Source: Kondoa subrosea (taxonomy: Eukaryota). From it: a stretch of 64,000 bases of DNA. The notes beneath the pieces are model-generated. The model was not told the DNA's origin. It saw only the letters and a list, made by a program, of their open reading frames with translations, and made no database searches. Below, in pieces: positions 48,011-64,000 of this stretch. The DNA is taken from contig BCIN01000005.1 in assembly GCA_039545335.1 (NCBI GenBank), positions 1,271,946 to 1,335,945 of the forward strand, given 5' to 3'. Each line of letters opens with the position of its first letter. Positions within the stretch are counted from its first letter, which is position 1. A program made the position numbers and the translations under genes.

Positions 48011-50665
48011 TTACTCATTATAACGCGATCGGGCCTTGTCGCCTATATGGAAAATCTGATCAGTTGCCTTTCATAGAAGAAACGTAGCCGCAACACACGT
48101 CCTTTGATATTGCTGTTCCAGCTGAGATTCTGATTCTGAGCACCAACAACTTCGCCTTTATCTGCACCGATACCAGCTCCTGCAGCAAACATCTTGACGG
48201 TGATGGGATCAACAGATCCGGATGCTTTCAATGCTTCGCCCTCCTTCCAACCGGCAGCTTCTAGCAGCTTGCGACCTCTGTTGTCCGCAGTAATACCCTG
48301 ATTGTTCGGCTGAATGACAGGCGCTGGTGGAGCAGGACCAGGTTCATAACGAGGTCTTTTCCCTCGACTGTCCGTGTCAAGCACCGGCTTGTCAGGTTGA
48401 CCAAGGATTTGTCTACGTTCAGCTGCCCTATCTCGGTACTGCTGCGAAGTCGTATCAGATTCAGCTTCAGTCACGACAACTGCTTGAGCCGGAGGAGCAA
48501 CAGCAGCCTTCTTCTCAACAGCAGCAGCTCGTTTGTCTTTGTCGGTCAGATTATTCTGTACAATACAGACTCCGATCAGAGAGAAATCTCGATGCGGTAA
48601 CAACAAGCTTGTCTGTACCTTATGAAGGTCAGATTTGTCATTATGTCTTCGCAACTCGTCAACACTTTTGAATTGGCGTTGACAAAGAAGACACTGGAAC
48701 TTGATCGGATCGGCGTAAGGAAACTCATCCGCCGGAGCAGAATAAGTACTTGGCTGTAGAGGTCTGAGTATCGTTCAACAGCGTGGTATTATGAACATAC
48801 TGGAACGACTTCGTCTTTTCTCTTGTCCCATTGTTGTATAAAGGCATTATTCTGATGTATTGCTCAGCATCATGTCAATGAAAGGCATGATTCACCTCAC
48901 CTTTTTTGCGGCAATAGGTTCTGCAGCTTTACGTTTATCGCCGGCGCTAAATAGCTTGGATTTTAGTATCTGCACCAATGATACTGATAGACCCGTACCG
49001 TAGCTCGACAGAAATCATAGCTGTCTCAGGATTTAGCCCGGCTTCTCTCTTTTTCCGATCAGCAGCAAGTTTCTCCTTCTCGATACCAGCAAGAAAAGCT
49101 TCATCCTCTTCTTTTGTTCGAACTTGTGCAGGTAAACCAGCAGGGTCGGCTGGAGGTACAGCAAGAACACTGGCAAATCCCTTCTGGTCCCAATATTGCA
49201 AATCGCCCGAACCGTCCAGAGGTTTAAAATTCCATTCAGATGGCGTATAAACTGGTCGAAAAGCATCTTGAGAAGCAAAAGTCAATTCAGGTGTTGCTCT
49301 TGCTATTTTGAATCCGGATGGATGTAATAAAGGATCCAGCAAAGACTGCATGGCAACTACAGCAGCCTATATAAAAAAGGTTTGTAAAAGAACAACACAG
49401 TGAGCAAAAGGTGCCATGCGAAAAAGTTGAAAAGGCAAGCAACATTGTGATTCACAAGCTCGAGGAAACAGAATCCCCAGCTGGATTTGGAGGTTCGGTC
49501 TTTGATAAGAAGAATGCGTCTGATACCTCCAGATTTGCCTGTCTGTTCAAAATGTCTGTTGAGACTGCTGACGATTTGGGACTCTGTGGTCAAAGCATCC
49601 AAATGGCGCAAAAGAAGGAATTTGTTTGGATGAGTGACAGCGTCCTTGTAACCGTCGTTCGGCCCAGATTCGCGATGATCAGAGTACGCGTCATCGTTGA
49701 CTATCAAAAGTCAGAGAAGCATCAAGACTGTCTAAGTGTTGCGCACTTGGCCTTCGCGGCTCAGGTCGCTGTCCCGGCAATTTGTCTGTCTGGCTGTAAT
49801 CAACCTGCACAGCCGTCATGATTTAACACCCACTCTAGCAAGACGATGCGCACCTTGACGCGGATAGGAGACACTGCTTCTCCAACTTGACCAGGTTCGC
49901 GCCAATGTACAGCAGGAAAGTTCGGTTCAACGAAAGCTCGAGCGTGTTCCACTGTCACAAATCTGGCGAACCCAAAGCCTTTGGAAAGTCCTGTATGTTT
50001 GTCTTTGACTATAGTCGTACTGTCAAGTTGAGCTCCCATATCTTCTAAGAATGCTCGGAGACCGTTGTCATCCACATGAGATGGCAAACCAATCAGTATA
50101 GCTGTTTGACATGGCGCAGACTTCTTATCCCGGGGCTAGGAGGTAGAGATTGAGCCAGGTGCGGCGAAATGAGTAATATTCTCTTACGTTATTGCGTGGA
50201 TATTGGTCTCTAGCAGGGGCCGCGGGCGGATAGCCTCTTGCGGTTTCGTCAGAATAGTGACCTGGTCCAGCAGAGTACGGCGGATACTGAGCAGGAGCAC
50301 GATGATATGAGTTGTGAGGTGGATAGACGTCTGATTGCTGATAATAAGGTGGTGCTTGATAGCCTTGATGCGACATGTACTGTTGCGGTGGTGGCGGCGC
50401 TCCGTATGGAGGATAGGCAGGGTGCTACGAGGCGAAGGAACAAAGTAAAATGTAGAGAAGAGCGAATGAAACAATGAATACAATGTACTAAATAGTGAGA
50501 GCAAGACGAAAGGCAACAAACTTGATAGCCTGGACCGTTTATAGGTGCACTTGGATGTCCATAGGCATCAGCTGGATGGTAGCTGTTTCGATTGTACACA
50601 TCTGGTGCATTGCTCGGTGGATATCCTTGTGGTCCTCGCTGGCCAGGGTATTGATTGTAGCTCAT
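48011..50665 (-). CDS. RBM5/RBM10-like RNA-binding protein (2 RRM, C2H2 finger, G-patch)
   Basis: KGFGFARF and WGFCFLEL RNP1 motifs, CLLCQRQFKSVDELRRHNDKSDLHK, YRDRAAERR, NRGRKLLEAAGWKEGEAL. Confidence 0.88.
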
Positions 50666-50834
50666 GGTATGCAGTCGCTCTAGGCGAATCTCGCTGTCCA
50701 AGACAAGGCCTTGAAATTCAAAGAAGACAGCAATGAGGCCAACTTCGGCCTGACACCGAAAGCTAGGTATCTCTTCTAATCTATGCAAGCTGGTCGGTCT
50801 TACAATGTTACAATAGTATACAGATACTTGTTCA

Positions 50835-53800
50835 TCAGTCTTCTTCATCTTCTCCCACATCAGCGTAAGTACGTTTGTTCCTTCTCGATGCTGCACCTTT
50901 AGCACCTCTACCTCTCGAAGACTTTGCTCCACGAGGCTTTCCTGCGCGACCTCTTCCTCTAGAGCTTCTGCCTCTTATACTACCTCGTGTCGGTGCATCA
51001 GTATTGCCACCGGGACAGGCATTTGACTGTTAGTTATCATCAGAAAAGCATCCTGGGACAAGCAGAGTCTTACAAAGTGTCCAGCTTCACCGCACTTGAA
51101 GCAAGAGCTGTGTTTTTGTCAGTCGTATACGTCTGCTCAACATTGGAGCACTTACTAATTAGATCCTCCAGCATCAGCATTTGGTGCCGTACGAGCGCGA
51201 GGAGCAGCTTGACCTCCTCGGCCATTCTCGTCTGCCCATTCGAAGCTATCACAGTTATCAGCTAGACTCCACATGGTGATTTGAATGCCCTACAATTTGC
51301 ATCGAGCTCTTTCGCTAACATTCGGACAGCAATAAAACTGAGATCCTGAGTGAGCGGCTTGCTAGTATCATGAGGATCAATCTGCCTACTTGACGACCTT
51401 TGTTATCGCCCTATACCCAATTTCATGTCATTGAAGCTCAAAAGAAGAGAACAACAGCTTACCTCTTTCGCTACAGTTTTGAGCTGGCCAGCTGTAAGAC
51501 GACATCGCAAAGAGCGAAAGATAACACTCACAGCAGCAGTTAAATTACATGTGCACATCAAAGGATTGTCTTCTGTGTTGATTTCGGCTCGAGGTCTAGC
51601 TTGTCGCTGACGTGGCCCATTCTGCTGTTCAGAAATCAGTCCCTGTATGTTACAGATTCATACCGAGCGTACATCCTGTCGAGCCAGTGGTCTCTGAGCG
51701 GAGCCATTGTCGTCGACCCACGCAAAGAAATTGCATCCTTCATCTTTGCCTCTTGGACAGGTCCAGAACGTGCGACCTTTGTTTGCTGTCTCCGCTCGAA
51801 CTGTTCGTTCCACTGCTGTTTGAGGTTCAGGACATGTACATTGAGGAGCTTCATCTCGAACAACATCTGCTTCTGCTTGTTTGCGTTGACGTTTGGGAGG
51901 TGGTCTGGCTAGAGGATCGTCTGTAGGTAATTCAGATCATCAGAGATAGATGCGGAAGACAAGCTTACCATCATCGTCGTCTTGCCTTGGTCGAGTATTG
52001 CTTTGACGAGTTGTACCTCTACCTCTGGTACCCCTTGGACCTCTCGATCCTCTGCCTCCACTTCTGGGAGGTGCAGGAGGCGGATTGTTGTAGTCATCGT
52101 GATCACTTCCTGCGTCGGATGCATCATCATCATTTTGCTGAGCCTGATGTTGATTCTGATTCCGAGCTGCACCGTTGCCTTGTAAATATTGACCGACAGA
52201 CTATCTTACCATCAGGATGGATAGAAAATGAGGCTTTGCAGACATACATCAATAAGAACGCCAAATTGCTGCCGAGCGCGAAGAAACACTTGTCGATATT
52301 CATCGAGCGTTTCGTCTAGCACTTCTCGTCGTGCTCTGGTGCCATCGCATATCAAGACCATACGCTGCTCCATCTGTACGCGCCATTAGAAAGTGCAGAC
52401 CCTAAGGCAAAATCTACATACTTCTCTACGCAAATGAGGTTTGCTTAGTGATTTTTCGAAACCGATCTTGTTGTAGCCTTCGACTAGGCCAATGCCGAGC
52501 GTCGATGGCAAGAGATATTCGGTCTGGCCTTCTCTTTGCTTCATGACATATTCTCGGTCGCATATCATTGAAATGTGTTGAGCGATGGTAGCATCAGTGC
52601 CTGACCAGATGGATTAGTTTCGCACTAATTAGAAAAGTATTGAAGCTCACCGATACCGTTCTTGTCCATTAGATTGACAAGATCAGCTTCAGTGAGCAAA
52701 CTTGGTCGACTAGTTTGACCTTCGCGCAATTCGCAGACGCTAGGCATGAACTTCTCGCCAACCCTGAAATCGGGAACATAAAAGCCATCCCATTTGTCAT
52801 AGGGGTAGACATCGAGATAATTGCGCTGATGCACAACGAGGCCTGAAGATTTAATCAGTAAAGCGATTGAGGCTTAACTTTGTCCAATCACCTGAAGTAT
52901 GAAACTCTTCTGAAGCCACAGTGATATCAACCGTCGTCTGAGATCCAGTAGCATTCTTGGAACAGCAAGCTAAGAAACGACGAGTGATGACTTCGTAAAC
53001 GCGCTTTTCATCGCCAGTTAAATTCGAGGCATGAGCAGTAGGATGAATCGGAGGATGAGCTTTATCGTTCTTTTTGCCGTTTCTCGGTCTTTCAAACCCT
53101 CCATTGCTTAACCTGTGGCTCTATATCAGCAAGTCTACTGGAATTGTTCGGAATAAGGGCTAACATCTGGGCGAAAGCTCCCCATCGATCATCTGTCGCT
53201 TGCTTTTGAACCAATTCCATGCAATCAAAGTCTTTATCAAATTGATCTGTTTCTGTTCGAGGATAGCTGACAAATCCACTTTGATACAGTTTTTCAGCGG
53301 TCTGGATTTGCAAGGTCAGTTCTGCAGATCAGCAAGGTATGAATAACAGACCTCCAGAACGCGCTTTGGACTCATATGTAGCAATCGAGATCCACTTTTT
53401 TGCATTTCAACAGTAGTGAGAGGCAGAGGTTTCCTATTTTGCGCTCAGCCATAGCAACGACGAAGAGAGCGGACACACCACTTCTGAGTTGGCTTGGTCT
53501 GGACATTGACTACCTCTGCTTCTGGATCGCCAACACAAAGTTCATACAGAACATAAGTTGCTTCCCAATCAAACAAACGGTTTCGTTTCCAGTTGAAGAC
53601 TGTCTTCTTCGCTTCACCCTCCTTTTCCAATTCGATGTAAATGTACCAAAACGTTTCCGGCACAAAGTTCTGGACTTTCTCGTATTGATCTACTACAAAA
53701 CCGAGAGTAGGAAATTGGCAAGGTCCATAAGAAAGAACTTTGGATTCGAGTTCTGCTGGGAAACGTGCTTGAAGAGTTAGGGTTTGTGCTCGAGTCAACG

Positions 53801-54501
53801 CTGCACCGATGCGAAGATCAAGATCCATTCTTGCTGTAACGGCTGCTGCTTGTCTTAGATCAAGAGGGACTGGATTCCTACAGGCATTGTGGATTTGGCT
53901 GTGCATGATTGCATCAGTAAAGACAGCTCACTGAGACGAGGGAACGTACGCAGGAATAATAGCGGAAAAGCGAGCTCGTTCTACTCTGATGCCGCGGTTG
54001 ACCTTCTTGACGATATCCACAATCTCCGTTCCGATGTGTTCTCCTTCTCGGTCGCAATCCGTCCAGATCATCAACACATCTTTGTTTCTACCTTCTCGCT
54101 CGAGATTGGAGGCGATCCCTTTGCCATCTTTTCGAACAAAAGCTTTGATTTCCGCGTCGAAAAGATCATAAGGATCGCAGTTGCGCCAACCGCGTAAGTT
54201 TTCGTCAGCAAACTCTGTTTCTGTCACATGACCCGTGACTGCTGTCATTGTAAAAGAAGCTTCTCTGCCATTGCCTAAGCGGTAAGTGAAGTCGTAGTTC
54301 TTGATCCATTTGACAGCGCTGGTTCTCTGCGATGTTGGTTTAGCATACTTCGGTAACTGAGTAAGCGACTCGCCGTGGTATATTGACCACCTGAAAGAAT
54401 CTCTGTGACGCTTCGAGAAATTGAAGGCTTCTCAGCGACCAGAAGATCTATAGCTTATTAGAGTGACCTCCATTGCTCTGCTATGTAGACTTACATCGCA
54501 T
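50835..54501 (-). CDS. TOP3: DNA topoisomerase III (type IA) with C-terminal GRF and CCHC zinc fingers and an RG-rich tail
   Basis: MRYLLVAEKPS, TAVTGH, WTDCDREGE, SYGPCQFPTLGF, catalytic SYPRTET, KAHPPIHP, GIGTDAT; tail NKGRTFWTC...CNFFAWVD, CFKCGEAGHFSNACP. Confidence 0.95.
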
Positions 54502-55610
54502 TATCTTAGCGCACGTCCAAGCGCAGGATCATAGCTATAGCAGTTGGGATGTCCGACTAGCAAAGCGACCTCAATGAAGAGCTCTTCCAGAACGAGGATG
54601 TATCAAGGCCCCTCAAGTAGAATGCGACTAGTCGATGCGTTTCTGCAGTACAGCTCGTCGAAGCTCTTTGGAGTCGCCGCTCAATGAAAAGATGGAATCG
54701 CGAATAAACAACAAATGTCATGACACGACGACACTGAATTGGTTGGTAGCTTGTTGCAGCTGCCCCAAGGGTTTCCTGTAACAATCTACAGCCAAAGGTC
54801 TCCCGCACTGTGTGCCAGTGGGATCTGTGTTAAAGGTTGTTCGCCAATATCAGAGTGTTCTCGTCGCTTTGACTGTATGAGCGGTTCTCGATATGGTGTT
54901 TAAAGACGACCTGTCGTCTGTATCCCTCTGTAGCTGCAGTTTTGCAAGCTTCAGAAGATTCGCAGCATTACGTAATCGACTCCGCGTTTCTCTCTCATAT
55001 ATGCTGTCTCGTTATCCTCTCAAGCATGTTCCCATTTGTTTAACCTGATCTAAGCTCGGGCCGAGCTCTCTTTTCGAGTCTGCACTTTTTGGTGATACAC
55101 TTTGGCTACCAACAGTCTTGGTTTCCAGCTTTGCATTATCGATTCCAACATCTGCGTTTCACATTCCTTATCTAGGCTAGCAGTTCTCGCCTATTGTAGC
55201 AGTCCTTTTCTACCTTTTCGTTCCTAATCTCTCAGAATGATCCTGCCAACTCTATTCATTTCCGAATGCTTGAGTCACATCCAACCGCTGGATCATGGCG
55301 ATATGCACACGGGTTGTTGAGGGAACATGTGCATCGAGAATTCAACCTCGAAAAAGGAAAGCACTTTTGATGCAGCCGGAAGTACATTGGGCAGTAACCG
55401 AACACATTTCAACAGAGAGGAACGAGAAAAAGCACGACTTCTCATTTCAAGAAACGCTGTCTAGCAGATTCAGTCAATACCGCACAGTTGGAACGGAGAG
55501 GAACCAGCGCAGATTACGCGTGAATTGGGGCATATAAAATCGGTGGGGCCTAAGTGTTTCTTTGCATGCTATGTGTGATAAACGTTTCGATACTTTTCCC
55601 ATCATTCTTC

Positions 55611-56060
55611 TCATCCATCTTCCAAGCCAAGTAATTCACTCCTCCTCGTTTCTGCTGCCTCCTCTAGTGCTTCGTGCCACAGTTTGAGCGTGATACTTCC
55701 AATTACGTCCCATCGTTTGCTGTCAAGACCTAGCAGGTAGTCCATGACTTTCACTTCCTTGACATCCCTAATCAGCTTCTGCGTCTCTTGCTCCTGCGCC
55801 AATGCACAATCGCAGATCTCTTCCTCTTCGTCTTTCCTAATCTTCCCTCTCGATCCAATGAGTCCAACGCGATCTAACAAGCACTTCTCATGCCCTCTGT
55901 TGAACTTCTCTCCACAAATACACTGCATTCTTGTACCAAACGTCCCGGCTCTCCATCGAATCGCTCGTCTCCTAGCGACCGCATCCTCTTCGTAAAGAGG
56001 AGTGGATTGGGCGTGACACCTATTCTACCTTCCTGCTTTCGAATAGCAGCTGGATATATT
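55611..56060 (-). mobile_element. Probable 3' remnant of a non-LTR (LINE-like) retrotransposon ORF2
   Basis: Frameshifted GVTPNPLL / RRRAIRWRAGTFGTRMQCICGEKFNRGHEKC...VMDYLL resembles, from memory, the C-terminal Cys/His knuckle region of fungal non-LTR RT proteins. No RT core and no introns are visible. Confidence 0.5.
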
Positions 56061-56237
56061 CCAGCCAGAAACAACTCTTACGAATCAATGGCAGAACAAT
56101 AGGAGGTTGCGGCACTCAAGCTTGCAGTAGTCTACGTGGTATTTCAAAGGTTGCGAGGTCCCAAAAAAAAATTGGGGAGTTTCCCAAAGGGCTGAGGAGA
56201 TAAGATGAGCTGGGTAGGATTAGGTTGTAGCAGAATT

Positions 56238-56272
56238 TACCTCCAAAGGGAATTGAACCCTTGACCTCGTTT
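56238..56272 (-). pseudogene. tRNA 3'-half fragment (variable loop, T-arm, acceptor strand)
   Basis: Minus strand AAACG AGGTC AAGGG TTCAATT CCCTT TGGAGGT A: perfect T-stem and B-box. No D-arm or 5' acceptor strand found upstream. Confidence 0.65.
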
Positions 56273-56289
56273 CCTGACATGGGTTCAAT
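56252..56289. repeat. 14-bp imperfect inverted repeat with 10-bp spacer (candidate recombination site)
   Basis: ATTGAACCCTTGAC - CTCGTTTCCT - GACATGGGTTCAAT; the arms match at 12/14. Confidence 0.7.
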
Positions 56290-56592
56290 CATTCGAAGCC
56301 TACAAAAGACATTTCCCGGACACACCCGGCTCTCGTGGCTGCAGTCAGTCTGACCTTTCCATCTTGCTGTCCTCATCTTGCTGTCTATGACTGCTGCGCT
56401 CACTCAGGCTATGTATTCCAAGCCAATTCTGCAATATGTATCATCAAAGAATCCAAAGAAAGCCAAGTTCGATGGTAGAACCGTTTGGACCTTGTTTTGG
56501 TCCTCTTTGCTTCTCATGGCCTGTTGCTTCTGAAGACCTCTTCTTCGCTTCTGTCCACTACCTCACTTCTTGCAATCCCCTTCACCACTGAC

Positions 56593-59480
56593 ATGGATCC
56601 TGCACCCGTTGCCAACAAGAAGAAACGCAAGTCGCTCTTCTCTGCTGCACTTGAAGCTCAACTAGCAAATCCAAACGAAGAATTGACACTGCGACAACAT
56701 GCCCAAGAGATTTCAGAGGCTTTCAATCAAACAGATGGTCCATCCTCTCAGCGTCAACGCGCAGCCATTCAACAGCGCTGGGAGGAATTTATTGATAACC
56801 AAAACTCGCTTGTCCTTACAGCACAAACGAACGCCGCTAACAATGTGGCATCATCAGCTAACTCCACGCCTCTCAAGCCATGGTTGGATTCGGTCATTGT
56901 CAAAAATGCTGCAGTATTCTTTCATTTGCTAGTACGTCGCCATAATCATCCCGCGAGACTCTGATTGACTCTGCTATAGGCCCGATGCCTAGTTGGAATC
57001 GATGGCGGCAAGATCAAAGCCAATACACTGTCCAAGGCAGCCGAACACTTTGTATGGTGTGTCAGCAAATTTGCGGAAGATAAAGATGGGAAAGCCTGCG
57101 GCCCTGCTCTGTTAAGAGATGTGGTGGACGAAAAAGGTGCAAGGGATTCATCGGGAGCTTTTCTACGACGCTCCCTCTTCAGCTTCATCGATGCGGCAGT
57201 TACCTCAGGTATATAATCCATCTGTTCTTCATACGTGTCTCTGATAACCTGTTTAGCAATTGTTGAACACGGACTATCCAAGAAGCCGAACGAACGTCAC
57301 TTCGCCGCAATAGCCGAAACTCGAATCCTTCTCGAGAGCATTCTGTTTCAGGCTGCTAACACACCTACTCAACGCGACTCGCTGCTCCAGATAGGCATAT
57401 CTATACTTCTGAGCTTTATTTGTGGAGTCAGAGCAGGCGCCTTGGGATTTTCGCATCGAGAATGGGCGGCAAAACAAAAGGTGTGTCTCTCTGTCGTCGA
57501 CCGATATATTGATTGATTTTCCCCAGTATCTCCAAGTCAAAGATACGCGTCTCTACAGGGCGGAAGACGGAACATTAGTACTCGAAATTAGTTTTGAACA
57601 TCTTAAGGTGCACCATACAATCTCAATCCATTTCAAAGAACTGATTAGCTCCACGACAGGGTTTCAACGGTGTCACGGAATACAAAACGCTCAAATTCGT
57701 CATCCGGCCAGTCCAGAAGCCTGATAATCTCCTTTTCGAAGTCTCAACGCTGTTGGGTGTGTTGTACATGTTGCGTGGTTGGCTACCAGGCATATCCGTT
57801 AGTTTCATCTGTATCTCAGACCATTGGCTAACCCATTTTTTTAGACGGTGGAACAACTGCTGAAAGGCAAAGAGGCCGAAATTACAATTGACGATGGTTT
57901 TGGCAACGTATCACCCGTGTGCGTGATGTGTTAGCGCAGCCAGCCTCGTTTGACGTGTCGCTCAGATTTGTCACGCATGGTGGCGGCGGTCGAGCTCTTA
58001 AAGTCCAGAACGGTCAGCTACCAAAGCCTATGTCTGCAGTATCCATCACCAGCGCCGTATCCAACAAGGCTATCGGTATTGGTCTGCCACCGCTCGCCTT
58101 GCACTCCTTTCGAAGAGCGAGAGGCGACATGGTTTGTTATCGTTTTCTCCTTGCTTCTGCCCTTTCTTATCAAGCCTCAGTTGAACAGCCTTCGCGGGAA
58201 AGAAGGCGCCAGTCTCATGTTAGGCCATGTCGAAGCGGACACTACAGCAGCTCGGTACTACTCCAGTGGTGTGCAAAATTGGGACGTTATGGCTGACGCT
58301 GTTGGGGAAAGCGAACTGTGGAAGAACAATCATATGGTGGTGGGTCGCCTTGACGAGCACAAACTCACCCTGAAATGTGATATGTCTGTTCAGGCCGAAC
58401 ATGTTCGCCAACAGCTCTTCAGCTCCTTGGCTCTTTGGCATCTTGCTTCTCGCCCTCAGAACGATAATGCGAATCAAGAAGAAGAAAGTCAAGCTCCGGA
58501 CGAGTCGCTCGACGTTCTCAAAACCAAACAGAAGAAGGTTTCATTCACTCCATCTGCTGCGCAATTGGCGGATGCTCTTGTAAGTTTCCGGACGTCTTGA
58601 AGGCGCAAGATTTGATCAGGACACAGGACGAAGATGATGCTTATACTGCTGCTTTCGAAAAGACTCAGAAATCTATCGACCTCTTTAATGCTTCTCTGCG
58701 TCCTGAAGCGAAACACATCACACGCGCCTCCGCAGAGTGGACCAGATGGCAGTCATGCTGCTCAGTCGAAGTCAAGCAGAAGAGCAGGCACAGTTATAAT
58801 GTCGCAGCGGATCCAGGTTTCGCAGCACGAGAAGCTGTGAGTCATTCGACCAATCTGATACCTCTCTTACATTCATCGCCTACAGTTGCTTCGTCAATTC
58901 GAGAAAGATTACGATGCTGAGAAACTGTTGAAATATCGAATTAAGAATCAACTCAATAAAAAGAACAAATCAGCTGTGGGCAAATTGGCAGTCTCCAAAG
59001 CTTCGGATCACACCCACGTCATGCAGGAAGACAGAGATAGAGCTGTTCTGGAATTGGAGAAGCCCAGCAATCTCTTGATCAACACGGCGGTCCGAGGAAT
59101 GGCCGAAGCAAGGAAACAATCGCACGTTGCGTCGTCCAAAGCAGATGCTAGTGTTTCTGATGATCTGTTCGACTACAATGAAGACGATTCTTTGGAAGAT
59201 CGGATCGATTTACGTACCGGAACTCGAACGATATATCTTGCCGAAGGAGAAACGCCTTCACCAACCGAAAACGTCGTTATTGGCTTTGCAAGACAGGCTC
59301 TCATTCACTATCTGTTGTCTGTACCTGAACCGATCAAAAAGCAACACGGGAAGGACACAAAGAAGAGGTCAGTCGCAATCAGTGTCTTGCCTCAAACAGT
59401 ATTAAATATGACATCTCATCCATAGGCCCTTAAGTGACGCAACAAATGCTGGAATGCCCAAGAAGGGACGCGCTGTGTAA
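56593..59480 (+). CDS. Intron-containing tyrosine recombinase (DUF3435/Starship-captain- or Crypton-like)
   Basis: Spliced frame stays open and contains the catalytic set in order: R (CGVRAG), K (FEHLKG), HxxR (LHSFRR), H (LMLGH), Y (TAARYYSS). Confidence 0.8.
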
Positions 59481-60168
59481 ATGAGGCTTCTGCTGCTGTT
59501 AGACACTAATTTCTATCCTTGTAAACCGGGCCACAGCATCTCATACATGTATTCTTCCTCGCTTTTTCTGTCAGTCTGCTTCGCGTCTTCGCCGTTTTCA
59601 GTACTGCTCTATTCGCTTAGCGCTCGAATATCGCTGGAAGGGCCGCCGTCAAAAGTCCACTTCCATTACTTCCGCTGTCTCACTCTCTTCTCTCACCCCT
59701 CGCTTCTTCTCTCTCTTCCTCTTTTCGGGCCGAATGTCTGTTCAAATATCGGCCTCTCCTTCTTTCTTTAACCAAGAAATCATCCGCTTCCAAGTTGATC
59801 ATCGGCAGAACCTTTTTTATTCAGACACCATCTTCTCAAAGGACGATGAACCATATTCTTGATTGGCTTTGCCAGGTCTGACGCAGCACTAAGGCACCCA
59901 TGCAACGGTGAATAAGATTCTCCATTGAAACGATGAAACGAGATTATATGGACTCGATGCACTGTACAATGTGTTTGTACTGTGGTAGTTTTAGCTTTTC
60001 AGCACCGCAGCCCATCATCCTCCCAGGTCTTGGCTTCCCAAGGTGCAGAATCAGGTTGCTGTTGCAGATTGAAACATGGGCCTCGCCTGAAACAAAACGC
60101 GTTCTACAATGCTCAACTATTGGTTATTAATATTTTTACGTCACAACGCAGTACATCAACAAAAAAAT

Positions 60169-60300
60169 GGCCGTTTGGTCTAGGTAAATCCCACCCCTAC
60201 AATTACACGGCTTTGACTAACGTCTTTCACAGTCGTATGATTCTCGCTTTGGGTGCACCCAGCTTGCGAGAGGTCAGGAGTTCAATTCTCCTAACGGCCC
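60169..60300 (+). tRNA. tRNA-Pro(UGG) with a 49-nt D-loop insertion (60184-60232) and an 11-nt canonical intron (60254-60264)
   Basis: Acceptor stem GGCCGTT/AACGGCC, anticodon stem CTCGC/GCGAG with TGG at 60250-60252, T-arm AGGAG TTCAATT CTCCT; matches the tRNA-Pro consensus TGGTCTAG..TATGATTCTCGC. Confidence 0.85.
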
Positions 60301-60307
60301 CTTTCCC

Positions 60308-60321
60308 TTTTTTTTTTTTTT
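60308..60321 (+). terminator. RNA polymerase III oligo-T terminator
   Basis: T14 run starting 8 nt after the tRNA 3' end. Confidence 0.85.
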
Positions 60322-62330
60322 CCGTTGAGTAGACGAACTGAGCTGCGCGAATTAGCTCAGGCTTCAGAACGCAATGCACAACTAGGTGATGTCTGAGAAG
60401 AGTCCGAGATTGTAACAATCGGATCGTGAAGCGCCGAATGAAAGTCGTGGCAGATTCAGCAAAGCTATTGGCCTTGATCAGCCCGTAAATGCGCACATGT
60501 ATTGGAATGAGCCGTTTCTAGGTCATATCTGATATCAAACATTGGATTTTGTAAGTAAACTGGGTTGCAATTCAACTCCCTGTCATTGGACGGCTTGCAG
60601 GACCAGTTGACAGTACGCGTGTGTAATAGTTTGAGGATGTGAATTTGGGAATGAGTTCGGAAGAAAGGTCATAGAGATGCTTGCAATTGACAGTAAATAT
60701 CTCTGAGCTGACAGCACACGATATCGTCATACCTTTAGCTTTGAGATCTGTCCATTTTGACGTGTTTCAAGGAACCCAAAGCAGGAATCATGCGACTTTG
60801 GAAGACGTTAGCGAAGGTAGGAGGCATGAAAGGATGGCACTAACCTAGACCATAAAGCCAATTTGATGAGGTGCCAGGCAGGCAGTTCAATAATGATCCA
60901 CAAAGTATTAAATTTGTAAAGCACAAGAAGTCGAGACGATCTGCAAAGCCATTCGAGAATTTGGTTCCATCGTTTCACTGCTCGGCCAATCTGTGCAAAT
61001 GAAGGCGCGCCAGCGAGGCACAGTGATTGATGCAGACCAGGGTATTGACTTCAGTCCAAATTGCAGCTCAGTTGTCATTTGAAGCCGATTTCGGAAATCG
61101 TTCATCATCTTCAGGCCTACCAAGTCTAGCTACCGGATTTGTGAACCGCCTCTCCTAGAGAGACAAAAGATTGAGCAACAGAGTCATTGTCGAGAAACAA
61201 AGGGATACTCACCTATGTCTAAATCGCAGGCCACCTGTCCGTCGAAAGCAAACGAGATCGTTCATGCAACATTCATCTTTGAAGCAGGCGAGTCGTAGTT
61301 GAGGCAGCTACGGCATCATACATCCTAACCATGAATCGAGAATGTTCGTCGTGGAACATAAAGCCAAAATAATACAGGCCAGCCGTAATGTAGTTGCAGA
61401 GACAGCATATACGATTTGCATCTTGCTACTTTGATCTAGCTGTATAGGTAACGCCAGCAATACACAAAGACTCCAGCAAAGATCGACAAGACTGAAGTAC
61501 CATTACCGGCACCGGGGTTGTCTTGTACCACTTCATTCATTGCTATCTTACAGCAACAGCTGACCATTGGTCTGTACAGAGCATAATGATTCGACTTGAG
61601 CTGTACATCATCTTCCGAATCTCTGAATGGCAAAATGCGCGGATCTAGAGCAGTAAAGGAAGGAGAGAGAGAGAGCGAGAGAGAGCGCTGTATGATACGG
61701 ATAATACAAGGTAAGAAGCCTGAATCAGAGGTCGCATCTGAAAACCGATGCGATAGAGTTTCTTGTCCATTATCAGCGACAGATTGAAAGGCAGAATAGA
61801 AGCTCGAGCAGTGCATCAGAATTACACGTGAGAAGCACACCAGGTATATCAGACTTTAGACACGGTTCGTCCCTGCTCTCCAAGATGTTGGCATTTATGG
61901 ATTTCCCGCTCGACATGGACATCAGTGCTGTATCGCGTAACGAATTGTCTATGCATAACTGAAGACTACTTTTACTGGCTTTGAAGAAGCGGAAGATGGC
62001 TCCGATTGCGCGAATGGATGGTGAGGTCTTGTTGAACAGGCTGTTGTGAGGACGGTAAGTACTTGCGCATGCAACGGCGAAGCTATGATCTTACAATCTT
62101 CAGGCACTCCTTATCCAACATCAAGTCGTGTTGTGCATGCGCGCGGCCAATTGTTACCAGTAATGCCATGCGGCTTCTGGCTCGTATTATGTTCTGATCA
62201 AGGAAGATCGGTACATATGTGCGTCTGACTTCCTTCAGCTGGTGTACAAGCTTATTTACGAGCCATAGTCCATAGACTAAATCGAGATGAGGACGAGAAT
62301 GTAAATAACCCTCTCATTCCCAACTACCAA

Positions 62331-63371
62331 ATGGCTACAAATATTACTCGACTACCTGATGGCAGATACCAATTCCGGTTATCCTCCGAAGGTGTATACA
62401 AGGCATATGAAACAGAAGGGGCACGTAACTTGGGCGCAATCAGTCTTTTTGGGTTCATGGGATTCTATGTAGATGAGGTGAGGTGCTTGATATTATTGCA
62501 TATATTCTCGCTAATCTCGCTATGGATAAGGTGCTTGACTACTACTGGGGAGCAGAGAAGAGTCTTGCGCGCAAGTCACAAGATTGGCTTACTTCGCATA
62601 CAAGTCGTTTGGAAGAGATTTTGGTCGAATTGGAGGATACTCAAGAGCGTGGTGCTCATGCATATCTTTACCTGCATGCGAGATACAGTGTCCAAAATCC
62701 GTTCTTTTCGTTGAGAAAGGAGTTTCTCGATAGTATGTTCCCACTCTGGGTTAGTTCAGGACTACTGCTGATATGTTTTGCAGTTGCATCTGCTAAGATC
62801 GCTTCTTTACAACGTATGACCTTAATCGAGCCAAGGTGCACTACTAATGGTGCTTGAACAGGCGCGATAAGATCTATACTCCTCAATCAGTTGTCGAATC
62901 AGAACGATCAAGGCACTACAGCTGTTGTCACTCCACAACGAAATTGCAGTCCAACTCCAACAGTCTGGTCGATCTCAAGTTGATATCATTCCTTTGTCTT
63001 CCCAGTCCTGGCTTTTCCAGTCGGTAGAACGAGATTGCCTTCTTGCGCTTCGGCTGACATTGGGAAGGACATGCAGTACATGATTTCATTATCGGGGAAA
63101 ACTACTGGGTTAGGGTCGCGATTGGCTGCTTTGGGAAGACCTTTGCAATCTTCGGCTGGCACATGCAACAATCTTCCAACTCTCTATGCCTGCTCTGTTC
63201 AATATCGAACATGAGTTCGATGATGTTCTTGTTGACGGACCACATGTCAGTAAGGAAGGAAGCGCTGTCGAAGAGACGTTTTCTGATCCACTGTGCAGCT
63301 ATCTCGTGCTGGTGACTGAAAGGGCAAAGGACACTCGTCAAGTTATAGCTTCATTGTCAATTCGTCCATGA
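62331..63371 (+). CDS. Multi-exon hypothetical protein or pseudogene
   Basis: ATG 62331 in good context; GT-AG introns join MATNITRLPDGRYQF...YVDE to VLDYYWGAEK...EFLD. The 3' part cannot be spliced unambiguously. Confidence 0.4.
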
Positions 63372-63596
63372 TTCTAGTAATGTTCTTTCCTGCTGTGTAC
63401 TTCTAATAGTCGCATAGCATTATATGTATTTCATCCTCTAGTATCTAATTGTTACACTATATTTGAGTCTGTCTTGAAGTGCATGAACAAGTCTGCTGTG
63501 GAGGCATCGCATGGATATGAATATCCGTTACTTTGAAATGCCTGGGAGTCAATGTACAGTATGTAATGCTCTTCAAACCCAATCTCCTTTCGCGTA

Positions 63597-64000
63597 TTAT
63601 TTCGATGCCTGCATCCCGATACGAGCCCAAAACAGTTTCTCTTTGATGCGAATCAAATCTCTCCAAGTCTTGACCTCCCATGGTCTAGAGTCAGGTTGCT
63701 GTTGCAAATTGACAAAACTACCTTGTCTTGACAAAGCTTGAGATATTGGTGTAGGTTTAGGTGCTTCAAAAGGATTCTGCTGTTGCGCCAGGACTGGGGT
63801 TACAGGGGAAGGGAAAGAGGAAGAAGCAGGCGTTGTCGGAGTGGCTTGAAGTCGAGCAATAGATCGACGTGGAACAGGTGGAGGAACAGGAGAGCCCGGT
63901 AGAACAGGGCTTTCCTTCTTGACTTCAGGTGCAGGTGATGCTTTCTCGCTCGGCTCAGCATCTGGATTCGCCTCTCCAGAAGTCTTCTCAGGCTCGGATA
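63597..64000 (-). CDS. 3' end of a Sec2-like Rab GEF gene (partial)
   Basis: Pro/Ser-rich stretch ending PWEVKTWRDLIRIKEKLFWARIGMQASK*, similar to the C-terminus of fungal Sec2 homologs as recalled. Confidence 0.6.
   Translation of the reverse strand, partial: SEPEKTSGEANPDAEPSEKASPAPEVKKESPVLPGSPVPPPVPRRSIARLQATPTTPASSSFPSPVTPVLAQQQNPFEAPKPTPISQALSRQGSFVNLQQQPDSRPWEVKTWRDLIRIKEKLFWARIGMQASK

What the first reader, a model, noticed from the sequence alone, without database searches (positions are those of the whole stretch)
56238..59480. Candidate tRNA-targeting tyrosine-recombinase mobile element in a probable basidiomycete
Seen: an apparently intact spliced YR with the R-K-HxxR-H-Y catalytic set begins about 300 bp from a truncated tRNA 3'-half and reads away from it, inside an accessory island that breaks an otherwise dense housekeeping gene run. 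Established: Starship captains (DUF3435 YRs) are the first gene of their elements and are described mainly from Pezizomycotina; bacterial YR islands often integrate in tRNA genes. Inference: LMLGHVEADTTAARYYSSGVQNWDV resembles the captain MGH....F..YY.S region, so this may be a small Starship/Crypton-like element that integrates at tRNAs.
Basis: partly seen in the sequence, partly recalled or inferred. Interest (0 to 1): 0.85.

Follow-up and report, generated by a model that had tools for sequence, protein, structure and literature searches.

The report
Single-copy Crypton-like recombinase gene in fungus
An intact, intron-rich fungal gene probably encodes a transposon-type DNA recombinase, but it is single-copy and nothing shows that it jumps or that it aims at tRNA genes.

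Summary
The gene is real. Eleven exons (56593..59480, +) splice through ten GT..AG introns of 46-58 nt into one open 798-codon frame. It carries R248, K291, H408-x-x-R411, H433 and Y443/444 in tyrosine-recombinase order.

Two separate exons land on DUF3435, DUF3504 and NDC10_II clusters in the ESM Atlas. This is a lead, not a test. No HMM, sequence or fold search could be run on the spliced protein, and single exons found nothing.

The mobile, tRNA-targeting reading is not supported:
- The source's own contigs hold the gene once at 80% likeness or more.
- No terminal repeats bound it.
- The "tRNA 3' half" is a decayed, inverted copy of a local tRNA-Pro gene family. That family has one intact gene and two pseudogenes.
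- A dispersed coding repeat lies next to it.

Best reading: a low-copy Crypton-like element, or a recently domesticated derivative, sitting in a gap rich in repeats and tRNA remnants. It is a new member of a known kind, of modest interest.

Side observation: the intact tRNA-Pro gene has a 49-nt GT..AG insertion in its D-loop.

The parts
56593..59480 (+). Spliced gene for a 798-aa tyrosine-recombinase-like protein. Exons: 56593-56931, 56980-57208, 57257-57480, 57527-57607, 57660-57797, 57845-57918, 57966-58131, 58181-58579, 58627-58836, 58886-59367, 59426-59480.
   Evidence: 2397-nt CDS with one terminal stop and ten GT..AG introns of 46-58 nt. R248, K291, H408, R411, H433, Y443/444, and a KKKRK box at residue 9. 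Atlas leads to DUF3435, DUF3504 and NDC10_II; one contig only, depth at baseline.
56238..56313 (-). Decayed tRNA-Pro-type pseudogene (copy C). The T-arm is kept, the anticodon stem-loop is deleted and the 5' part has decayed.
   Evidence: local alignment to the intact tRNA-Pro scores 39, reached by 0 of 500 shuffles and 0 of 400 random segments; 12.2-bit T-arm match. Not called by ARAGORN or by Rfam at gathering score.
60169..60301 (+). Intact tRNA-Pro(UGG) gene (copy A). It has a 49-nt insertion in the D-loop (60184-60232) and an 11-nt canonical intron (60255-60265), and is followed by a T-run.
   Evidence: once the 49 nt are removed, ARAGORN calls a 73-nt tRNA-Pro(tgg) with an 11-nt intron at 37/38; the precursor folds with acceptor, anticodon and T arms, z = -3.28.
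60731..60859 (-). Decayed inverted copy of the tRNA-Pro gene (copy B). It has a 49-nt D-loop insertion at the same place. Its 5' part is well kept and its T-arm is lost.
   Evidence: inverted repeats I1, I2; A against B scores 84; not called by ARAGORN.
55550..55994 (-). Dispersed coding repeat overlapping ORF 55611-56024 (-). Probably a fragment of a transposable element or of a multigene family. It is not part of the recombinase gene.
   Evidence: summed contig depth 730-888 against a baseline of 142-145 in run X1, up to 9 contigs at one site, copies 85-90% alike, and the source's contigs break here. 21 of the 33 listed variant sites inside the ORF fall on codon position 3 (my count from table 3; 66 further rows were not shown). 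No Pfam hit.

Best explanation
The locus holds one intact, single-copy, intron-rich nuclear gene. It encodes a recombinase of the eukaryotic Crypton/DUF3435 tyrosine-recombinase supergroup, and the full catalytic set is still present.

Most likely it is the only gene of a low-copy Crypton-like DNA element. Such an enzyme would cut out the element as a circle and reinsert it by recombination across a few shared bases. The other possibility is a young domesticated derivative of such an element. I cannot separate these two, and put them at roughly 55:45.

The gene sits in a gene-poor spacer between TOP3 and the next gene. The same spacer has collected a dispersed coding repeat and three tRNA-Pro-derived sequences (one live gene, two pseudogenes). 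The tRNA-like piece upstream belongs to that local tRNA family and is not an attachment-site scar.

Shown: the gene structure, the motifs, the single copy, and the nature of the tRNA pieces. Inferred: the recombinase fold, the family, and any mobility.
For: Gene and motifs:
- Open 798-codon frame across 11 exons, with ten canonical short introns.
- Catalytic residues in the order R-K-HxxR-H-Y with spacings 43, 117, 3, 22 and 10-11. This matches the RKHRY pentad given for captains (PMC10104507, passages).

Atlas leads:
- Exon 3: recognition 3084 and best score 0.97. Of the 30 hits, 7 fall in the DUF3435 set and 4 in the DUF3504 set.
- Exon 8: scores of 0.93 and 0.91 to DUF3435 clusters and 0.91 to an oomycete cluster with NDC10_II.
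- Two independent exons therefore reach the same supergroup.

Copy number and setting:
- Depth stays at baseline (142.4 in X1, 52.2 in X2) in all 8 bins from 56072 to 59807, and one contig spans the gene.
- No second copy in the window.
- No compositional break.
- Cryptons are known from a basidiomycete yeast with a 19-Mb, intron-rich genome. They are low-copy and have no long terminal repeats (PMC3212892 and PMC7175516, passages).
Against: No statistical homology test was passed.
- 0 of 10 exon translations matched any recombinase family in Pfam at E up to 10. PHROGs and NCBIfam gave none either.
- 3 exon searches of PDB sequences gave nothing relevant.
- 3 word-index protein searches found nothing.
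- The full HMMER scan with exon 8 returned only 4 hits, all unrelated repetitive proteins.
- For exon 8 the Atlas recognition value (2147) is below the 2300 mark, so that hit is weak on its own.
- AlphaFold on exon 8 alone was uninformative, with pLDDT 56.

Against an active element: ten introns and a single copy fit a host gene as well as an element. No element ends were found.

Against CryptonF specifically: no GCR1_C domain in the C-terminal exons.
Confidence: 0.6

Rival explanations
1. One reading: a small Crypton/Starship-like element that integrates into tRNA genes. In its boldest form, a 4.4-kb unit carrying the recombinase and its own tRNA-Pro gene inserted into or beside a tRNA-Pro gene, leaving the decayed copies B and C as junction remnants.
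For: All three tRNA-like sequences found in the 64-kb window lie within 4.7 kb around this gene. B and C are both on the minus strand and flank the recombinase gene and the intact tRNA-Pro. B keeps a good 5' part and C keeps a good T-arm. The recombinase gene starts 280-318 bp from C and reads away from it.
Against: B has its own 3' acceptor strand, so it is a whole decayed copy and not a half. C also carries D-arm and intron remnants. B against C aligns no better than chance, with 162 of 500 shuffles reaching the score. C is inverted relative to the intact gene and shares no exact core with it. The gene is single-copy. A multi-copy repeat lies directly beside C and is a simpler cause of local disruption. 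The papers read on Cryptons and Starships report no tRNA targets: 'tRNA' occurs 0 times in PMC3212892 and in PMC13465315, and only in methods and references in PMC11162782.
Confidence: 0.1
2. A domesticated host gene. It is a former Crypton recombinase now kept for a cellular role in DNA binding or site-specific recombination, and no longer mobile.
For: Single copy. Ten host-style introns and an intact frame. Base composition like its neighbours. An N-terminal KKKRK nuclear-targeting-like box. Intron-rich recombinase copies are discussed as candidates for domestication in Glomeromycota (PMC13465315, passages).
Against: Known domesticated Crypton derivatives have usually lost catalytic residues (PMC3212892 and PMC13465315, passages), whereas all are present here. 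A conserved host gene should have orthologues, yet exon-level searches of billions of proteins found none. The gene lies in a repeat-bearing spacer.
Confidence: 0.27
3. Not a recombinase at all: a lineage-specific protein whose R, K, H, R, H, Y pattern is a coincidence.
For: No HMM, sequence or structure match to any recombinase was obtained. Single residues in the right order are easy to find in an 800-aa protein.
Against: Two non-overlapping exons independently gave DUF3435 as their best named family in the Atlas. Exon 3 scored 0.96-0.97 with recognition 3084. By the tool's own calibration, shuffled proteins reach 0.95 about once in 100. The local motif contexts G-x-R-x-G, HxxRR and GH-x8-RYY match the supergroup (read directly from the sequence; the consensus is recalled, not from a call).
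Confidence: 0.08

Closest known systems
CryptonF DNA transposons of fungi and oomycetes (Crypton-Cn1 of Cryptococcus neoformans; Goodwin 2003, not seen; Kojima and Jurka 2011, PMC3212892, passages)
   Same: One spliced recombinase gene in a unit of a few kb. No terminal inverted or long direct repeats. Low copy number. A basidiomycete-type host with short introns. An Atlas neighbour cluster with NDC10_II from oomycetes.
   Different: CryptonF proteins carry a C-terminal GCR1_C DNA-binding domain. None was detected in exons 8-10. The 4-6-bp terminal repeats could not be sought with a single copy. No sequence-level match was obtained.
Starship captains (DUF3435, PF11917), including the unnamed 'Family 11' enriched in basidiomycetes (PMC11162782, passages)
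   Same: An RKHRY-type catalytic set. The best named Atlas neighbours of both exons are DUF3435 clusters. In that paper, basidiomycete captain-like genes likewise lack recognisable element boundaries.
   Different: No PF11917 hit at exon level. At most about 9 kb lies between the flanking genes, against a smallest Starship of 15,020 bp. No cargo genes were recognised and no TIR or DR was found. Known specific targets are 5S rDNA, AT-rich DNA and TTAC, not tRNA genes.
Domesticated Crypton derivatives (Cbf2/Ndc10 and Gcr1 in yeasts; DUF3504 genes ZMYM2-4 and QRICH1 in animals)
   Same: A single-copy, intron-bearing nuclear gene derived from a recombinase. DUF3504 and NDC10_II clusters appear among the Atlas neighbours.
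   Different: Those proteins have mostly lost the catalytic residues, whereas this one keeps all of them.
tRNA-targeting mobile DNA: bacterial and archaeal integrase islands, and Dada DDE transposons of fish (PMC8869645, search listing and abstract only)
   Same: A recombinase gene lying close to tRNA-derived sequence.
   Different: Those elements leave an exact direct repeat of part of the tRNA at both ends, and their copies recur at many tRNA genes. Here the tRNA pieces are inverted or decayed and the gene is single-copy.

Membership tests
Tyrosine recombinase superfamily | Catalytic R, K, HxxR, H/W and Y in that order, with compatible spacing | tested here: met
   R248, K291, H408, R411, H433, Y443/444 in the spliced protein. 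This is a pattern read from the sequence, not a statistical test.
Tyrosine recombinase superfamily | Recombinase catalytic fold, or a significant profile match | tested here: inconclusive
   The spliced protein could not be handed to Pfam, fold prediction or fold search. 0 of 10 single exons hit a recombinase family. AlphaFold on exon 8 alone gave pLDDT 56. The Atlas leads point to recombinase families.
DUF3435 (PF11917) / Starship captain | Match to PF11917 above the gathering score | tested here: inconclusive
   No exon matched at E up to 10. A 400-position model split over six exons is a weak test. The full-length protein was not testable here.
DUF3435 (PF11917) / Starship captain | First gene of a large cargo-carrying element with defined ends (DR/TIR), and an empty site in relatives | tested here: not met
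   No bounding repeats. No recognisable cargo in the flanks. About 9 kb at most lies between the flanking genes. The empty site was not testable: only the source's own runs were found.
CryptonF | Recombinase domain plus a C-terminal GCR1_C domain | tested here: not met
   Exons 8, 9 and 10 (133, 70 and 160 aa) gave no GCR1_C hit at E up to 10. A domain split by an intron could have been missed.
CryptonF | Short (4-6 bp) direct repeats at both termini, seen by comparing copies | not testable with these tools
   Only one copy exists in the data and no genome is held.
tRNA-integrating element | A direct repeat of a tRNA segment at both ends, and recurrence at tRNA genes | tested here: not met
   C is inverted relative to the intact tRNA-Pro and only partly alike. 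B against C is no better than shuffles, with 162 of 500 reaching the score. Single copy.

The most novel reading that the evidence does not exclude
A Crypton/DUF3435-type recombinase element in a basidiomycete-like yeast that uses tRNA-Pro genes as its landing site and carries its own working tRNA-Pro gene. That carried gene would make up for the one it disrupts. This would be a eukaryotic counterpart of bacterial tRNA-integrating islands. The two decayed tRNA-Pro copies that flank the recombinase gene and the intact tRNA-Pro, both on the same strand, would be the old junctions.
Probability: 0.07. Interest if true: 0.8.

Novelty: new member of a known kind. Interest (0 to 1): 0.3.

Why it matters
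Tyrosine-recombinase elements are well charted in Pezizomycotina (Starships). In basidiomycetes they are poorly known: captain-like genes exist there, but no element boundaries have been found (PMC11162782). An intact, catalytically complete and very divergent recombinase gene in a small yeast-type genome is a useful data point on whether such genes there are mobile or domesticated.

As it stands it is one more Crypton-like gene without evidence of movement. Only the unproven tRNA-targeting reading would change how eukaryotic DNA elements are understood to choose safe landing sites.

The D-loop insertion in the neighbouring tRNA-Pro gene may be of separate interest for tRNA processing.

Tried and rejected
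Homology searches that found nothing useful:
- Exon-level Pfam, PHROGs and NCBIfam scans: nothing relevant.
- PDB sequence searches with exons 3, 7 and 8: nothing relevant.
- Three word-index protein searches with exon 8 (twice) and exon 3: nothing.
- Full HMMER scan with exon 8: 4 hits, all repetitive and unrelated.
- Two metagenome scans with exons 8 and 10: no relatives.

Data that were not available:
- No whole genome is held for this window.
- Sequencing runs: only 2 runs of one sample, probably the source. No RNA holder is listed and no sister strain was found.
- Earlier-findings look-ups returned nothing on this genome or on a look-alike.

Uninformative analyses:
- AlphaFold on exon 8 (pLDDT 56) and on the repeat ORF (pLDDT 43). 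No fold search was run on these models.
- Codon usage against neighbouring ORFs: r = 0.55, but an out-of-frame control gave 0.61, so this was dropped.

Idea rejected: that copies B and C are the two halves of one tRNA-Pro gene split in the anticodon loop by a 4.5-kb insertion. By hand, B's 5' acceptor strand pairs with C's 3' strand at 6 of 7 positions, but 3 of those are G-U pairs. B has a better 3' strand of its own. C also holds 5' remnants. B against C is no better than shuffles.

A bulge-helix-bulge motif at the D-loop insertion is not evident in the predicted fold.
Full report
**What is there.**

The stretch 56593..59480 (+) holds a gene that I could splice cleanly. It has eleven exons and ten introns of 46-58 nt, all with GT..AG ends. 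The CDS is 2397 nt and gives a 798-residue protein with a single, terminal stop. Five of the ten introns have a CTRAY branch-like box.

A frame that stays open across ten junctions is good evidence of a live gene.

The rest of the window fits a fungus with many short introns, and the first 54 kb is a run of ordinary genes:
- porin, phosphopantetheinyl transferase, a hydrolase and a DDHD protein;
- M24 and M28 peptidases and SRP54;
- a CAP59-type mannosyltransferase, an LRR protein, a G-patch protein and TOP3.

The source's own contig set is about 19 Mb. I did not establish the organism. 'Probable basidiomycete' is plausible but untested.

**Is it a tyrosine recombinase?**

The spliced protein has GVR248AGAL, EHLK291GF, H408SFR411R, MLGH433 and ARY443Y444. 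That is the R-K-HxxR-H-Y order, with spacings typical of the superfamily. It matches the RKHRY pentad quoted for Starship captains (PMC10104507, passages).

That is a severe handicap for a catalytic domain spread over exons 3-8.

At exon level nothing was found:
- Pfam: 0 of 10 exons hit a recombinase family at E up to 10.
- PHROGs and NCBIfam: nothing relevant.
- PDB sequences: nothing relevant.
- Three word-index protein searches: nothing.
- The full HMMER scan of 1.84 billion representatives with exon 8: four hits, all internally repetitive proteins of no relevance.
- Metagenome contigs: no relatives.

The only positive signal comes from the protein-language-model Atlas:
- Exon 8: nearest named clusters are DUF3435 (0.93 and 0.91) and an oomycete cluster partly annotated NDC10_II (0.91). 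Recognition is low at 2147.
- Exon 3: recognition 3084 and scores of 0.96-0.97. Of the 30 hits, 7 fall in a DUF3435 set and 4 in a DUF3504 set.

DUF3435, DUF3504 and NDC10_II are the Pfam faces of eukaryotic Crypton/Starship-type recombinases and their domesticated derivatives (PMC3212892 and PMC13465315, passages). Two non-overlapping exons pointing to the same supergroup is hard to get by chance.

I therefore put about 0.9 on 'recombinase of the Crypton/DUF3435 supergroup', while stressing that no E-value backs it. AlphaFold on exon 8 alone was useless (pLDDT 56).

**Which family?**

This is unresolved.
- CryptonF proteins carry a GCR1_C domain (PMC3212892). None is seen in the C-terminal exons.
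- Starships are at least 15 kb, carry cargo and have defined ends (PMC11162782). Here at most about 9 kb separates TOP3 from the next gene. The flanks hold no recognisable genes and no bounding repeats.
- That paper also notes that basidiomycete captain-like genes (mostly 'Family 11') have never been tied to elements with boundaries. This gene may belong with them.

**Is it mobile?**

Laying the source's own contigs on 50001-64000 at 80% likeness or more gave a clear picture.
- Across the recombinase gene, all eight bins from 56072 to 59807 stay at baseline depth (142.4 in X1, 52.2 in X2), and one contig spans it. The gene is therefore single-copy at that level of likeness.
- The window holds no second copy.
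- Base composition does not differ from the neighbours.

Single copy, ten host-style introns and an intact catalytic set fit two readings. One is a low-copy Crypton, a class that is rare in the one basidiomycete yeast where it is documented (0.1% of the genome; PMC7175516, passages). The other is a recently domesticated gene. I cannot separate them.

The absence of any detectable orthologue in very large protein collections, together with the retained catalytic residues, leans slightly towards an element. Domesticated relatives usually lose those residues.

**The tRNA claim.**

ARAGORN in default mode and Rfam at gathering score find no tRNA in the window. With introns allowed, ARAGORN finds one gene at 60169-60301.

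This gene (copy A) is a tRNA-Pro(UGG). It becomes a clean 73-nt cloverleaf with an ordinary 11-nt intron only after a 49-nt insertion in the D-loop is removed.

An inverted, decayed copy (B, 60731-60859) has a 49-nt insertion at the same place and its own 3' acceptor strand.

None of 500 shuffles and none of 400 random window segments reach that (maxima 36 and 38). The alignment includes the end of the D-loop insertion, the D-arm, the canonical intron and the T-arm, with the anticodon arm deleted. So C is a third, decayed member of a local tRNA-Pro family and not a truncated half produced by integration.

C is also inverted relative to A and shares no exact core with it. That is the opposite of what an integrase-type att duplication leaves behind.

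I also tested whether B and C could be two halves of one gene split by the 4.5-kb segment. B is complete in itself, and B against C is no better than chance, with 162 of 500 shuffles reaching the score.

Directly left of C lies a dispersed repeat (55550-55994):
- It has 5-14 times baseline summed depth, and its copies are 85-90% alike. The source's contigs break there.
- 21 of the 33 listed variant sites inside its ORF fall on third codon positions. It is therefore a coding multi-copy family, probably part of another transposable element.

This repeat is a simpler explanation for a disturbed tRNA neighbourhood.

One fact still stands. All three tRNA-like sequences of the 64-kb window cluster within 4.7 kb around this gene. 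That keeps a small probability, about 0.07-0.1, on a tRNA-linked element.

**Literature.**

In the papers I read (passages only), no Crypton or Starship is reported to target tRNA genes:
- 'tRNA' occurs 0 times in PMC3212892 and in PMC13465315.
- In PMC11162782 it appears only in methods and references. That paper reports 5S rDNA (23% of sites) and AT-rich targets.
- A search for Crypton, tRNA gene, tyrosine recombinase and insertion site surfaced only DDE-type Dada transposons of fish as eukaryotic DNA elements aimed at tRNA genes (listing and abstract only).
- Goodwin 2003 was not available to me and is cited through others.

**Verdict.**

The recombinase reading is probably right but unproven. 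The 'Starship-like, tRNA-integrating' reading is not supported. This is a new member of a known kind, with interest 0.3.

The D-loop insertion in the tRNA-Pro gene has spliceosomal-type ends (GTAAAT...GACTAAC...CAG) and is conserved in length and 3' sequence in a decayed paralogue. It is the oddest thing in the neighbourhood and deserves its own look. A review notes that such non-canonical insertions in eukaryotic nuclear tRNA genes are rare and usually taken for pseudogenes (PMC4090602, passages).

Noticed in passing
window 60169-60301 (+); insertion 60184-60232; decayed copy at 60731-60859 (-): The only intact tRNA gene in the window, tRNA-Pro(UGG), carries a 49-nt insertion in its D-loop. 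The insertion has GT..AG ends and a GACTAAC branch-like box, and falls in the same size class as the 46-58-nt introns of the neighbouring protein-coding gene. The tRNA gene also has a normal 11-nt intron after position 37 and is followed by a T-run. A decayed inverted paralogue has a 49-nt insertion at the same position with the same last 17 nt. This is either an unusual intron in a working tRNA gene or a pseudogene family. Two literature searches listed nothing comparable for fungi.
   Followed up: partly
window 55550-55994, ORF 55611-56024 (-): A dispersed repeat with 5-14 times baseline summed depth in the source's contigs and copies 85-90% alike. Both of the source's contig sets break here. 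21 of the 33 listed variant sites in the ORF are third codon positions, so it is a coding multi-copy family. It has a Cys/His-rich stretch but no Pfam hit, and AlphaFold gives pLDDT 43.
   Followed up: partly
window 60637-60749 and 63009-63158: Each stretch matches one other long contig of the source at 87-90% identity. These are small dispersed repeats of unknown nature. A 50-nt stretch at 60023-60072 also resembles 63663-63712 at 84%.
   Followed up: no
window 59481-63596: About 4 kb to the right of the recombinase gene has few long ORFs (0.54 of bases covered, against 0.73 for the window) and no Pfam match in 9 ORFs tried.
   Followed up: partly
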